A stretch of 64,000 nt of DNA from a virus. A program made the translations under genes and the position numbers. The DNA lies in the IMG/VR virus record IMGVR_UViG_3300032246_003079; one strand, 5' to 3'. The notes under the pieces are model-generated. The model saw only the letters and a program-made list of their open reading frames with translations, was not told the DNA's origin and ran no database searches. Positions 43,698 to 46,105 of this stretch are shown piece by piece (the stretch's first letter is position 1; each line of letters opens with the position of its first letter).

Positions 43698-44425
43698 TAT
43701 TTTAAACTTTTTAATTTTTTTATTGATTCAATCAAAACATCAACATCTTTTTCACAGTATTTTGCAATTTCATCAAGTCTACTCTGATTCCAATATGCCT
43801 GATGAACCATACCTCCATTTATTTCACCATCTTTTGGTGTTGGAATATCTAAACAAGAACACATTAAATCTAAAGAACCAATTGAACTATACGAACCATA
43901 TTGCCAAATTTCTTTGGTGTCAATCGCTTTCACTTCCCATGGTTTGGTGTCGTATGACGGAAGTATTTTTGATGGCATAATATTGTTAATAATCATACGT
44001 TTTGCCAACATAGGAATATCAAAGTTTTTTAAATTATGTCCACACAAATAAAAATCTAATTTGTGACAACGGTCTAATAAATTTCTAACTTCCAATAGCA
44101 AATCCTCTTCGTTGTCATTTTTAAAAGTTTGTTTTTTTACATCACCGTTTTCTAAAACAAATGCCATTGATACACAAACAATTTTAGCAAACTCTGGAAC
44201 AAGTGCCGCTCTTGAAGAATAAACATCATTCATTTTTTGAAGTTCTTCTTCAAGACCATTTGTCTCAACGTCATCTTCAGGAAATCGTTTTAAAAACCAA
44301 TCAAAGTATTTAACAAATTGTTCAGCAATTTTAGGGTGATTTTCTTGACAAGTCCGCCAATCCTTACATATACCAACAGTTTCAATGTCGATAAATAAAA
44401 TTTTGTTAATAGGTATGTTTATCAT
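43697..44425 (-). CDS. PolB-type 3'-5' exonuclease (stand-alone)
   Basis: IDIET, GHNLKNFD, YCEKDV (Exo I/II/III). Confidence 0.88.
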   Translation of the reverse strand: MINIPINKILFIDIETVGICKDWRTCQENHPKIAEQFVKYFDWFLKRFPEDDVETNGLEEELQKMNDVYSSRAALVPEFAKIVCVSMAFVLENGDVKKQTFKNDNEEDLLLEVRNLLDRCHKLDFYLCGHNLKNFDIPMLAKRMIINNIMPSKILPSYDTKPWEVKAIDTKEIWQYGSYSSIGSLDLMCSCLDIPTPKDGEINGGMVHQAYWNQSRLDEIAKYCEKDVDVLIESIKKLKSLK

Positions 44426-45682
44426 TTTATTAAAGATTTATAAAGTTCCGCTCTATTTTTTGTGACCACATTCAAATCATATGTGTCTTTCACCGTTTCA
44501 TACAATCGTTGTCCCAAGTCATAAGCAAAGTTAGGATTATCAATTAATTTTTTCATGTTTTTAGCCCAATCACTATGATTTTTTACTTCATCTACTAAAA
44601 GTGCGTTTCCGTCAGAGAATTGACCATTTTTTAATGCGTGTTTTAAATCAATAGTGTAGGGACCAACATTTGAAGCAATAATTGCTTTTTTGTAAAAACC
44701 AGCTTCAATAACTTTTAATTGCGACTTAACTCGGTTAAAAATATGATTTACAATCGGTGATAATGAAACGTCAAATAATCTATAATTTGAAGCATAACTT
44801 GTAACAGGTTTTGTCCAAACTCGATTGTAAAAAGGTTCAGACTCCATAATATATTCTGAATCCTCAAATTTTTTCAAATATTCAATATGTTGGGGGGAAA
44901 CCATTTTATAATTGTCAGTAAAAATTTCTTCATAACGAGCCCATACGGTTTCTTCTGGTCGTATTGGTCTTTGTTTTTGTTCTCCCGTTTCTTTATTAAT
45001 TTCAGTAACACTTCCTCTTGTATCAAAACCACATAAATACAATGAAAATTTGTCATGACTATCTTTTAATTTATTCGTAACGCCGCTTAACAATTTTAAA
45101 TCGTGTAAGTGAGAAGAACCACCCAACCATCCAAAACGAAGTTTATCTGACGGTTTTGTTTCATGGTTAAATTGAGCTTCTTTTGGATTAATTGCATTTG
45201 GAAGAACGTATACGTTTTTATTAATTTTAGATATTTCTGAAGCAAATAAAGATGTTGTTGTTGTTACATGTGCCGCCACTTTTAGATTTGCAACTATCTT
45301 TTGATTTATTTTGTTCTGTATGATTAGTTGATGAATTGGGTGCTCTTTAGTTGGCAACCAATAATCATCTAAATCCATAATTGTAATTACACCAATAGAA
45401 TTTAATGTTTGAATTAATTTATTGGATTGGTCAAAATCTTGACCAATTGACCTATGGAAATGTACAATGTCGTATTGTTTCCAATAGTTATAATCATTAA
45501 TTTTTGGGTCATAATCTATATCTATGTGAAATTCATCTGAGTGATTATTTTGTAACATTACGTGGGGGTCTACAGACCTAAATTTTCCTTTAAATTCAGC
45601 CAACTCCAGTACGGTCGCTAGGGACGCATAGAACCCTAATTTTTTTGCGAACGTCTGGAGTTGGATTGCTCTCTTGATTCAT
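44422..45682 (-). CDS. GT-B glycosyltransferase encoded in two frames: 45682-45599 (28 aa) and 45585-44422, separated by a 13-nt coding gap
   Basis: Segment 1 MNQ..KIRVLCVPSDRTGVG* joins segment 2 KFRSVDPH...; body has MDLDDYW, GWLGGSSH..DL, FNRVKSQLKVIEAG. Confidence 0.75.
45600..45664 (-). other. GC-rich 22-bp mRNA stem-loop ending at the putative take-off codon
   Basis: CCAACTCCAG/CTGGAGTTGG, ACG/CGT, TCGC/GCGA, TAGGG/CCCTA; 33 of 65 nt are G+C. Confidence 0.8.
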
Positions 45683-46037
45683 GTTTTTTTATTAAGTTAT
45701 TTATTATTTGTGGGTTTGATTTCAATTCAGACTCCCACACCACTTCAAAAAAATAACCATTACTTTTTATTAAGTCAATTTTATTATTATCATATTCCCA
45801 TAATTCTTGTGCGGTTTTTTTCTTTACTTGGTGATAATAACTTGCGTCGTATTTTTTTGGGTTACAATGCCAATAATCTCCATTATATTCAATAATTAAA
45901 TTTAATTTAGGTATATATATGTCACATATTTTTGTGTCAATTTTTAATGAATGTTTTACTTGGTAACCCATATTTTTTATTTCTTCCAATATTTCTTTCT
46001 CTTTTTTAGACCTATTAATTGATTTTATTTTTCCCAT
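45636..46037 (-). mobile_element. Free-standing Vsr/DUF559-like (EDxHD) endonuclease
   Basis: SK.E, D.YIP, IIEYNGDYWH, D..K, GY....VWE motifs. Confidence 0.8.
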
Positions 46038-46076: not shown

Positions 46077-46105
46077 ATAAAAAATCCACCTAAAATAGGT
46101 GGATT
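46077..46105 (-). terminator. Rho-independent terminator upstream of the endonuclease
   Basis: Minus strand AATCCACCTA-TTT-TAGGTGGATT plus T tract. Confidence 0.8.

What the first reader, a model, noticed from the sequence alone, without database searches (positions are those of the whole stretch)
45600..45664. 22-bp hairpin whose base sits on the take-off codon; hop length matches the ribosome's 5' footprint
Seen: mRNA CCAACUCCAG-ACG-U-UCGC-A7U-UAGGG-(10-nt loop)-CCCUA-GCGA-C-CGU-A-CUGGAGUUGG. It is 51% GC in an otherwise very AT-rich window, and the last paired GG is the start of the GGC codon before UGA. The 5' arm is encoded by an N-terminal extension (NPTPDVR) that looks built to pair with the SDRTGVG codons. 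Inference: with GGC in the P site the 3' arm is inside the ribosome. A 13-nt forward slide would free it at about the mRNA exit and let the stem zip, acting as a pusher and ruler that sets landing at GGA. The structure argues against a random indel or assembly error.
Basis: partly seen in the sequence, partly recalled or inferred. Interest (0 to 1): 0.82.

Follow-up and report, generated by a model that had tools for sequence, protein, structure and literature searches.

The report
Hairpin-driven ribosome hop in phage gene
A freshwater phage glycosyltransferase gene is broken by a 13-base stop-containing insert, and comparison with about 100 related alleles indicates that ribosomes hop over it, helped by a conserved upstream RNA hairpin that travels with the insert and a homing endonuclease as one mobile cassette; this would be a new natural family of translational bypassing.

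Summary
The hairpin is real: 22 bp, RNA MFE -30.6 kcal/mol, z -6.9 against dinucleotide shuffles, and 0 of 2000 synonymous re-codings fold as well. Its last two pairs are the GG of the GGC codon before UGA. Uninterrupted homologues read ...SDRTGVG|KFRSVDPH... across the junction. The window carries exactly 13 extra bases there, and a GGC-to-GGA hop restores the homologue sequence.

I found 46 distinct interrupted alleles in related phage contigs, with hop lengths of every value from 5 to 15 nt.
- All have a take-off codon, an immediate stop and a short G-poor gap, and all but one land on a matching codon.
- GGY lands on GGN in 41 of 41 alleles, and AGY lands on AGC in 4 of 5.
- All have an 11-residue N-terminal extension that supplies the 5' arm.
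- All have the hairpin, whereas none of 54 uninterrupted alleles does.
- The stem covaries at synonymous sites.
- ORF2 is under purifying selection and has no conserved start codon of its own.

The gap state follows the tree of the adjacent homing endonuclease (2 changes) and not the glycosyltransferase tree (at least 9). The "pusher" reading is well supported by comparison but untested experimentally. The "13-nt ruler" reading is not supported. I found no published report of this system.

The parts
45599..45682 (-). ORF1, 28 codons (ATG at 45682..45680 to the take-off GGC at 45601..45599). It encodes an 11-residue extension followed by the native strand beta1 and Gly loop (KKIRVLCVPSDRTGVG).
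   Evidence: In the AF2 model, beta1 is residues 4-9, the loop is 10-15 and helix alpha1 starts at 16.
45647..45679 (-). N-terminal extension (codons 2-12, NQESNPTPDVR). It carries the 5' arm of the hairpin and is absent from all uninterrupted alleles.
45600..45664 (-). The 22-bp hairpin. Its 5' arm lies in the extension. Its 3' arm consists of the S-D-R-T-G-V codons plus the GG of the take-off codon.
   Evidence: Covariation is shown.
45599..45601 (-). Take-off codon GGC (Gly28).
   Evidence: Across the family the take-off codon is GGY or AGY.
45589..45598 (-). Untranslated gap TGAATTTAAA. UGA lies immediately 3' of the take-off codon. The distance from take-off to landing codon is 13 nt.
45586..45588 (-). 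Landing codon GGA, the first GG after take-off. Decoding resumes at AAA (Lys).
44422..45588 (-). ORF2, the rest of the GT4-like GT-B glycosyltransferase (388 codons from the landing codon, plus the stop).
45579..45598 (-). Small 7-bp A/U hairpin (UGAAUUU / loop AAAGGA / AAAUUUA), with the stop codon in the stem and the landing codon in the loop. It is specific to the 13-nt allele; the gaps of most alleles are too short to form it.
   Evidence: Gaps of other alleles are listed.
45636..46037 (-). Truncated homing endonuclease gene (133 aa, the Vsr/DUF559-like nuclease domain only). Its stop codon TAG lies inside the hairpin, and the ORF overlaps ORF1 by 47 nt. The full-length form is 315 aa with a NUMOD3 motif (L003, L009).

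Best explanation
The glycosyltransferase is made as a single chain by programmed translational bypassing. Ribosomes translate the 28-codon ORF1 and pause with peptidyl-tRNA(Gly) on GGC and UGA in the A site. The mRNA then slides 13 nt until the same tRNA re-pairs with the first downstream GGN (GGA), and decoding resumes at AAA. The product, ...SDRTGVG-KFRSVDPH..., is identical across the junction to uninterrupted homologues.

The hairpin is the stimulator. At take-off its 3' arm is held inside the ribosome, right up to the P-site codon, while its 5' arm is free behind the ribosome. Re-zipping of the stem pulls mRNA out of the exit side. This destabilises codon-anticodon pairing and biases movement forward. 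Landing is set by re-pairing, not by distance.

The gap, the extension with the hairpin, and the upstream homing endonuclease form one mobile cassette. The insert probably breaks the endonuclease's target site, giving self-immunity as in T4 mobA/gene 60, and the hairpin keeps the host gene expressible.

Shown by comparison: the gene architecture, co-occurrence of gap and hairpin, covariation, purifying selection and cassette mobility. Inferred: the hop itself, its efficiency, the pushing role of the hairpin and the immunity role of the insert.
For: 1. Junction. Uninterrupted 404-aa homologues, up to 98% identical, read SDRTGVGKFRSVDPH. The window has exactly 13 extra nt between GVG and KFR.

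2. Family. There are 46 distinct interrupted alleles with hops of 5 to 15 nt, every length represented.
- All have a stop codon directly after take-off. The stop, and GGY at take-off, were required by the patterns, but not by the scan or by the endonuclease-protein search.
- All have ORF1 of 27-28 codons wherever it was delimited, and the 32 distinct complete ORF2 sequences are intact.
- No single frameshift or readthrough event explains frame offsets of 0, +1 and +2. Close relatives differ by indels in the gap (11 against 12 nt, and 13 against 15 nt).
- L067 has two in-frame stops in its gap.

3. Take-off and landing codons covary. GGY lands on GGN in 41 of 41 alleles, and AGY lands on AGC in 4 of 5. 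In the 28 alleles checked, the landing codon is the first GG after take-off, and the gaps are G-poor.

4. ORF2 has no conserved start codon; L025 has none in its first 120 codons. dN/dS among interrupted alleles is 0.02-0.17. The SDRTGVG codons vary synonymously while the peptide stays invariant. The junction lies at the N-cap of helix alpha1, just after strand beta1 and the Gly loop of a GT4-like fold.

5. Hairpin.
- The 84-nt MFE averages -29.1 in the 46 interrupted alleles (weakest -23.1) and -11.1 in the 54 uninterrupted ones (strongest -20.7).
- Hairpin and gap go together in 9 of 9 independent contrasts on the tree (p = 0.004).
- The third position of the Thr codon pairs as G-C, A-U, C-G or U-A in different alleles. 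The third position of the Gly codon pairs as U-A, C-G or G-C.
- 85.7% of cells are paired, against 29-43% in slid controls. The covariation score is 0.233 against 0.121 in shuffles, reached by 0 of 500.
- The base of the stem pairs CC:GG in Gly alleles and CT:AG in Ser alleles.
- 42 G-U cells make the structure specific to the mRNA strand.

6. The hairpin tracks the gap, not the endonuclease. Alleles with the endonuclease but no gap have no hairpin (L006, L248, L257 and others). Alleles with a gap but no detectable endonuclease keep the hairpin (L017-L019).

7. Cassette mobility. The gap state needs at least 9-11 changes on the ORF2 tree but only 2 on the endonuclease tree. The cassette is about 100% identical across genomes whose ORF2 falls to 88-98% identity just past the landing site.

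8. The 13 nt are present unchanged in an RNA-library contig and in independent DNA runs.

9. Precedents. Upstream hairpins juxtaposed to the E site stimulate forward shifts at CUU-UGA in 70S translation (PMC6321510, PMC3639245). A driver role has been proposed for exiting-mRNA pairing in gene 60 (bioRxiv 10.1101/2024.12.09.627546).
Against: - There is no protein, reporter or ribosome-profiling evidence, so bypassing and its efficiency are inferred.
- In the window the landing GGA matches the take-off GGC only at two positions. A tRNA(Gly) with anticodon GCC would mispair at the wobble base.
- For this 13-nt allele alone, a +1 shift at GGC_U_GAA would also restore the frame, adding the residues EFKG.
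- Host, host tRNAs and release-factor context are unknown. No tRNA gene was found in the window or in the nearest record.
- The scans required GGY and TRA, which biases those two features. Searches did not.
- The RNA-library contig could derive from contaminating DNA.
- Co-occurrence of hairpin and gap could partly reflect joint inheritance within one cassette. The covariation and the two clean joint losses argue for selection, but they do not prove a stimulatory role.
Confidence: 0.7

Rival explanations
1. In this 13-nt allele, ORF1 and ORF2 are joined by a hairpin-stimulated +1 frameshift at GGC_UGA, as in prfB, rather than by a 13-nt hop. The product would be GVG-EFKG-KFRS.
For: - 13 = 12 + 1, and the +1 frame across the gap is open.
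- There is a stop in the A site and a duplex abutting the E and P sites. This is the arrangement shown to stimulate +1 shifting in 70S systems (PMC6321510).
Against: - tRNA(Gly) cannot re-pair well on GCU.
- The homologous element in relatives has offsets of 5-15 nt, which would need +2 shifts or readthrough of one or two stops.
- The closest relatives of this allele have gaps of 6 and 15 nt.
- The gap sequence shows indels and no amino-acid conservation.
- The four extra residues would sit at the N-cap of alpha1, next to the Gly loop.
Confidence: 0.1
2. Bypassing or some other recoding does occur, but the hairpin serves the cassette rather than the hop. It might be a 3' stabiliser or processing site for the endonuclease mRNA, a regulator of endonuclease or glycosyltransferase translation, or part of the sequence change that protects against cleavage.
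For: - The endonuclease stop codon lies inside the hairpin, and the ORFs overlap.
- Hairpin and gap are inherited together with the endonuclease, so co-occurrence alone cannot separate the roles.
Against: - Alleles with the endonuclease but no gap lack the hairpin.
- Alleles with a gap but no endonuclease keep it.
- The 3' base of the stem is always tied to the take-off codon and covaries with it, CC:GG against CT:AG.
- There is no U-tract and no terminator call at this site.
- G-U pairs show that the structure acts on the sense RNA strand, not as DNA.
Confidence: 0.1
3. The gene is inactivated or split. ORF2 is either not made or is made from an internal start without strand beta1, or ORF1 and ORF2 act as two separate polypeptides.
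For: - Gene callers annotate only a 378-aa product from an internal ATG.
- The window allele has TTG and ATG codons near the 5' end of ORF2.
Against: - The 32 distinct complete ORF2 sequences from interrupted alleles are all intact, with dN/dS of 0.02-0.17.
- Many lack any start codon near the 5' end.
- The ORF1 peptide SDRTGVG is conserved through synonymous change.
- Beta1 and the Gly loop are core elements of the Rossmann domain.
- The endonuclease decays by deletion while the recoding module stays perfect.
Confidence: 0.05
4. The insert is a sequencing or assembly artefact, and the hairpin is a chance structure.
For: None was found.
Against: - The identical insert occurs in many contigs from different studies and in independent runs.
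- The hairpin has z -6.9, and 0 of 2000 synonymous re-codings match it.
- The stem covaries across alleles.
Confidence: 0.01

Closest known systems
Phage T4 gene 60 50-nt translational bypass with the mobA homing-endonuclease cassette (reviewed in bioRxiv 10.1101/2022.08.31.505936)
   Same: - Glycine take-off and landing codons.
- A stop codon immediately 3' of take-off.
- An upstream stem-loop proposed to drive forward movement.
- The insert sits next to a free-standing homing endonuclease and moves with it.
- The endonuclease often decays while the bypass element persists.
   Different: - The gap here is 5-15 nt, not 50.
- There is no room for the take-off/A-site stem-loop that is essential in gene 60, and no internal Shine-Dalgarno sequence.
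- ORF1 is only 28 codons, so a gene-60-type nascent-peptide signal is unlikely.
- The 5' hairpin here is the strongly conserved, covarying element, whereas in gene 60 homologues the 5' SL is reported as not conserved.
- The host gene (a GT4-like glycosyltransferase, not a topoisomerase) and the endonuclease family (NUMOD3 plus Vsr/DUF559-like, not the MobA type) both differ.
- There is no sequence homology.
Low-efficiency 'hops' over a stop or hungry codon in E. coli reporters (the +5/+6 hops cited in the introduction of bioRxiv 10.1101/2022.08.31.505936; primary papers known to me from memory only)
   Same: Peptidyl-tRNA detaches next to a slow A-site codon and re-pairs a few nucleotides downstream on a matching codon, regardless of frame.
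   Different: Those hops are synthetic or adventitious and inefficient. Here the arrangement is naturally selected, conserved across diverged phages, needed to make an otherwise conserved enzyme, and equipped with a dedicated stimulator.
prfB (RF2) +1 programmed frameshift, and experimentally placed upstream refolding hairpins (PMC6321510, PMC3639245)
   Same: [quoted passage not shown]
   Different: The duplex here is an intramolecular mRNA hairpin, not an SD:anti-SD helix. The displacement is 5-15 nt with non-overlapping re-pairing, not +1.
Magnusiomyces capitatus mitochondrial 'byps' (as summarised in bioRxiv 10.1101/2022.08.31.505936)
   Same: Mobile inserts inside essential coding sequences that are skipped during translation.
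   Different: The byps are 27-55 nt GC-cluster-like elements in a mitochondrial system that use an unassigned sense codon. No endonuclease is linked to them, and no upstream covarying hairpin is described.

Membership tests
T4 gene 60-type bypass cassette | Take-off and landing codons are read by the same peptidyl-tRNA | tested here: met
   GGY lands on GGN in 41 of 41 alleles, and AGY lands on AGC in 4 of 5. The landing codon is the first GG after take-off in the 28 alleles checked. The window's GGC-to-GGA pair matches at two of three positions.
T4 gene 60-type bypass cassette | A stop or slow codon lies immediately 3' of the take-off codon | tested here: met
   UGA or UAA follows take-off in all 46 alleles. 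This includes alleles found by scans that did not require a stop.
T4 gene 60-type bypass cassette | A take-off stem-loop forms in the A site from the 5' part of the gap | tested here: not met
   Between the take-off and landing codons there are only 2-12 nt. Only the 13-nt allele can form a small A/U hairpin, and most alleles have no room for one.
T4 gene 60-type bypass cassette | A roughly 50-nt gap with an SD-like element 6 nt 5' of the landing codon, and homology to the gene 60/mobA region | tested here: not met
   Gaps are 5-15 nt. The host gene is a GT4-like glycosyltransferase. The endonuclease has NUMOD3 plus MTES_1575/DUF559-like domains. There is no Rfam match.
T4 gene 60-type bypass cassette | A nascent-peptide signal acts in the exit tunnel | not testable with these tools
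   ORF1 is only 27-28 residues. The basic residues 14-16 positions before take-off are also present in uninterrupted alleles, so they are not informative.
Free-standing homing-endonuclease mobile cassette | An endonuclease gene shows presence/absence polymorphism at one site, with a co-converted flank more conserved than the background and a phylogeny incongruent with the host gene | tested here: met
   Endonuclease-less, endonuclease-bearing and decayed alleles all occur at the same site. The cassette is about 100% identical while ORF2 is 88-98%. The gap state needs at least 9 changes on the ORF2 tree and 2 on the endonuclease tree. Cleavage activity and target site were not tested.
prfB-like +1 programmed frameshift | A +1 shift restores the frame at a slippery codon followed by a stop | tested here: not met
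   This is possible arithmetically for the window allele only. Family offsets span 5-15 nt, and GGC cannot re-pair in the +1 frame.
Upstream refolding-hairpin recoding stimulator (PMC6321510) | A stable hairpin has its 3' end juxtaposed to the E/P-site codons at the recoding site | tested here: met
   The stem ends 1-4 nt before the last base of the take-off codon in all 46 alleles. A stimulatory effect was not tested.
Intrinsic transcription terminator | A GC-rich hairpin is followed by a U-tract | tested here: not met
   There is no U-tract after the stem, and the scan makes no call at this site. The nearby terminator is at 46105..46083 on the minus strand.

The most novel reading that the evidence does not exclude
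This may be a minimal, portable bypass module. An A-site stop codon, together with an upstream hairpin whose base overlaps the P-site codon, would be sufficient to launch efficient ribosome hops of 5-15 nt to the next cognate codon, without a take-off stem-loop or a nascent-peptide signal. Homing endonucleases would use the module as a self-immunity insert inside a conserved coding target. The natural allelic series would then be the first evolutionary proof that re-pairing of mRNA leaving the ribosome acts as a forward motor.
Probability: 0.5. Interest if true: 0.92.

Novelty: new variant of a known kind. Interest (0 to 1): 0.88.

Why it matters
- **Rarity.** Programmed bypassing is known from very few natural systems: T4 gene 60 and its topoisomerase homologues, and yeast mitochondrial byps. 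The 2022 survey (bioRxiv 10.1101/2022.08.31.505936) states that no similar bypassing had been reported in other phages. Full-text searches found no paper linking bypassing to a phage glycosyltransferase.
- **Scope of the series.** This family offers 46 natural variants covering every hop length from 5 to 15 nt. It has two take-off amino acids with matching landing codons, and a stimulatory hairpin with clear covariation.
- **Relevance to an open question.** Whether pairing of exiting mRNA drives forward movement is disputed for gene 60, where the 5' stem-loop is not conserved. This family provides the material to test it directly.
- **Mobile-element biology.** A second, unrelated homing endonuclease lineage has coupled itself to a bypassed insert, which suggests a general strategy.
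- **Annotation.** These genes are currently annotated as N-terminally truncated 378-aa proteins.

Tried and rejected
- A nucleotide search of cultured phage records found nothing. The protein search found only relatives below 40% identity, so no isolate is available.
- The window's own assembly is not held.
- No tRNA genes were found in the window or in the nearest record, so the identity of the tRNA(Gly) could not be addressed.
- A PDB sequence search with the glycosyltransferase found nothing. The fold search was needed instead.
- A PDB sequence search with the endonuclease gave only a marginal match to the NUMOD3-like part of I-TevI.
- A plain MAFFT alignment mis-registers the 5' arm by one base between allele groups. 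I therefore used per-sequence folds and a covariance-model alignment, which leans towards the model structure.
- RNA run X20 laid no contigs.
- The small A/U hairpin in the gap was considered as a gene-60-like take-off stem-loop. I rejected it as a family feature because most gaps are too short to form it.
- An SD-like sequence at the landing site (AAGGA, UAAGG) was considered. It overlaps the landing codon itself and is not consistent across alleles.
- A reassigned stop codon was rejected. TAA, TGA and TAG all close long ORFs in the window.
- A terminator and a known RNA family were rejected.
Full report
**Observation**

The genes in this part of the window lie on the minus strand. It has stems of 10, 3, 4 and 5 bp (22 bp in all), an A7U bulge and a 10-nt loop. 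The MFE is -30.6 kcal/mol, against a mean of -12.6 for dinucleotide shuffles (z -6.9, 0 of 200 as good). The structure persists when 185 nt of context are folded. Resampling synonymous codons of the same peptide gives -14.2 +/- 3.5, and none of 2000 samples is as low as the observed -31.1. GC content is 50.8%, in a window of 30.2%. The last two pairs are the GG of GGC (45601..45599), which is followed by TGA. No terminator is called at this site, and no Rfam family matches.

**The gene is interrupted by exactly 13 nt**

A 28-codon ORF1 starts at the ATG at 45682. It ends ...KKIRVLCVPSDRTGVG and then reaches a stop. The long ORF2 begins in the +1 frame with ...GKFRSVDPHVMLQ. Thousands of homologues exist. 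The full-length ones are 404 aa, up to 98% identical, and begin MKKIKVLVLASDRTGVGKFRSVDPH. The window therefore carries 13 extra bases between GVG and KFR, and a hop from GGC to GGA recreates the homologue junction.

An AF2 model of the 98% homologue (pLDDT 89.8) places residues 4-9 in strand beta1, residues 10-15 in the Gly loop, and the junction at the N-cap of helix alpha1. Its nearest solved folds are GT4 enzymes such as GlgM, MshA and BshA. ORF2 alone would therefore lack a core strand of the Rossmann domain.

**A family of interrupted alleles**

I collected alleles by three routes:
- DNA-pattern scans of viral and metagenome contigs;
- a search with the uninterrupted protein;
- a search with the neighbouring endonuclease protein, which is independent of any junction pattern.

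These gave 46 distinct interrupted alleles and 54 distinct uninterrupted ones. The distance from take-off to landing takes every value from 5 to 15 nt, with 6 the most common. All interrupted alleles share one layout:
- ORF1 of 27-28 codons, wherever it was delimited;
- a take-off codon GGY, or AGY in one subfamily;
- UAA or UGA immediately after it;
- a short, G-poor, A-rich gap;
- a landing codon, followed by the conserved K/Y-F/Y-R-S codons.

GGY lands on GGN in 41 of 41 alleles, and AGY lands on AGC in 4 of 5. The exception, AGT to GGC, can still pair through a G-U wobble. In the 28 alleles checked, the landing codon is the first GG after take-off.

Frame offsets of 0, +1 and +2 all occur, and close relatives differ by indels in the gap (CCAAA against CCAACA; 13 against 15 nt). 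One allele, L067, has two in-frame stops in its gap. No single frameshift or readthrough event fits all of these, whereas re-pairing of the retained peptidyl-tRNA does.

TAA, TGA and TAG all close long ORFs in the window, so the genetic code is standard.

**The interrupted genes are functional**

- All 32 distinct complete ORF2 sequences from interrupted alleles are intact.
- dN/dS among interrupted alleles is 0.02-0.17. This holds within a clade made only of interrupted alleles whose synonymous sites are near saturation.
- ORF2 has no conserved start codon. L025 has none in 120 codons, and others have their first at codon 32-64.
- The SDRTGVG codons of ORF1 change synonymously while the peptide stays fixed.

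**The hairpin belongs to the gap**

Every interrupted allele has an extension of about 11 residues and a hairpin. The 84-nt MFE ranges from -23.1 to -36.0 (mean -29.1). No uninterrupted allele has either feature (mean -11.1, strongest -20.7). On the ORF2 tree, 9 of 9 independent contrasts go the same way (p = 0.004).

The hairpin follows the gap and not the endonuclease:
- alleles with the endonuclease but no gap have no hairpin (L006-8, L248, L257 and others);
- alleles with a gap but no detectable endonuclease keep it (L017-L019).

The stem also covaries:
- Independent folds of each allele give the same architecture.
- The third position of the Thr codon pairs as C-G, A-U, U-A or G-C in different alleles.
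- The third position of the Gly codon pairs as C-G, G-C or U-A.
- Ser codons TCT and AGC are each matched by a compensating 5' arm.
- On a covariance-model alignment, 85.7% of cells pair, against 29-43% when the partner is slid by 1-3 columns.
- On the same alignment, nine pairs change on both sides.
- The covariation score there is 0.233, against 0.121 +/- 0.010 in shuffles (0 of 500 reach it). That alignment leans towards the model structure.
- The two pairs at the base of the stem are CC:GG in Gly alleles and CT:AG in Ser alleles.
- G-U pairs (42 cells) make the structure specific to the mRNA strand.

**Mechanism**

With the take-off codon in the P site and a stop in the A site, the 3' arm runs from about 18 nt upstream into the P-site codon, so it is inside the ribosome while the 5' arm is free. 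Re-zipping would pull mRNA out through the exit. This is the arrangement shown in a 70S system to stimulate forward shifts at CUU-UGA (PMC6321510, PMC3639245). It is also the 'driver' proposed for gene 60 (bioRxiv 10.1101/2024.12.09.627546).

After landing, the base of the stem lies 5-13 nt upstream of the P-site codon (calculated). From general knowledge of SD-to-start spacing, a duplex can sit at the exit at that distance.

It does not support the 'ruler' reading, because the same hairpin serves hops of 5 to 15 nt and landing follows the first cognate codon. One trend remains: the stem reaches column 82-83 (the take-off GG) in all alleles with hops of 8 nt or more, and usually ends at column 80-82 in 5-7-nt hops.

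For the window allele alone, a +1 shift giving GVG-EFKG-KFRS cannot be excluded.

**A mobile cassette**

Immediately upstream lies a homing endonuclease gene. The full-length form is 315 aa, with a NUMOD3 motif, a Vsr/DUF559/MTES_1575-like nuclease domain and a match to a PHROG 'homing endonuclease' family. In the window about 525 nt have been deleted between 22-nt direct repeats, leaving the 133-aa nuclease domain. L004 carries a different deletion.

Three further observations point to movement as a unit:
- Uninterrupted L001 has no endonuclease at this site.
- The 400 nt upstream of the landing codon are about 100% identical among genomes whose ORF2 drops to 88-98% identity just downstream.
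- The gap state needs at least 9-11 changes on the ORF2 tree but only 2 on the endonuclease tree.

The endonuclease, extension, hairpin and gap therefore move together between glycosyltransferase alleles. This parallels T4 mobA/gene 60, where the insert protects against the endonuclease (bioRxiv 10.1101/2022.08.31.505936). Protection here is an inference.

**Reality of the insert**

Runs from 12 studies, mostly freshwater, hold the stretch. DNA contigs from 2016 and 2020 cover it without gaps. A 162-nt contig from a metatranscriptome library spans 45563-45724 with no difference, so the 13 nt are not removed in that material, although DNA carry-over cannot be excluded.

**Novelty**

Literature searches found gene 60 work only. 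They found no paper linking bypassing to a phage glycosyltransferase. The 2022 survey states that no similar bypassing had been reported in other phages, and that the gene 60 5' SL is not conserved.

This is not a member of the gene 60 family. It has no take-off stem-loop, no 50-nt gap and no sequence homology. It does work like gene 60 in its use of a Gly take-off and landing pair, an adjacent stop codon and a linked endonuclease. I class it as a new variant of programmed bypassing, supported by comparison only.

Earlier notes of this scan on the same genome proposed the same reading. None had been followed up.

Noticed in passing
window 46016-46037 and 45636-46037 (minus strand): The window's endonuclease gene is a deletion derivative. 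About 525 nt (175 codons, including the NUMOD3 part) are missing relative to L003 and L009. The breakpoint lies at a 22-nt direct repeat, which keeps the start codon in frame. L004 carries a different small deletion.
   Followed up: yes
L009:3666-4499: In one related contig a second, unrelated homing endonuclease (GIY-YIG plus NUMOD3, 277 aa) is inserted between the glycosyltransferase and the PolB-like exonuclease gene.
   Followed up: no
L261, L264, L274, L282 (regions printed): A more distant glycosyltransferase subfamily (...TGVS / YFRSTKPH) uses serine take-off and landing codons (AGC to AGC, or AGT to AGC), with hops of 5, 7, 8 and 9 nt. In L264 the landing codon overlaps the last base of the stop codon.
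   Followed up: partly
L271: One allele takes off from AGT (Ser) but the only candidate landing codon is GGC. This is a first-position mismatch that tRNA(Ser) with anticodon GCU could still pair through a G-U wobble. It may report on how tolerant landing is.
   Followed up: no
window 46083-46105 (minus strand): A clean intrinsic-terminator-like hairpin with a U-tract lies between the 211-aa gene and the endonuclease remnant, so the cassette sits just downstream of a terminator.
   Followed up: no
G001; contig lengths: The nearest held virus record (53 kb) is rated 15% complete, and related contigs reach 290-310 kb. These are therefore probably jumbo phages. The runs holding the stretch are mostly freshwater or lake metagenomes.
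   Followed up: no
L006-L008, L248, L253, L257-L260, L263, L266: Two endonuclease clades sit upstream of uninterrupted glycosyltransferase genes with no extension and no hairpin. On the endonuclease tree they are nested among gap-bearing lineages. This suggests clean joint loss of the gap, the hairpin and the extension.
   Followed up: partly
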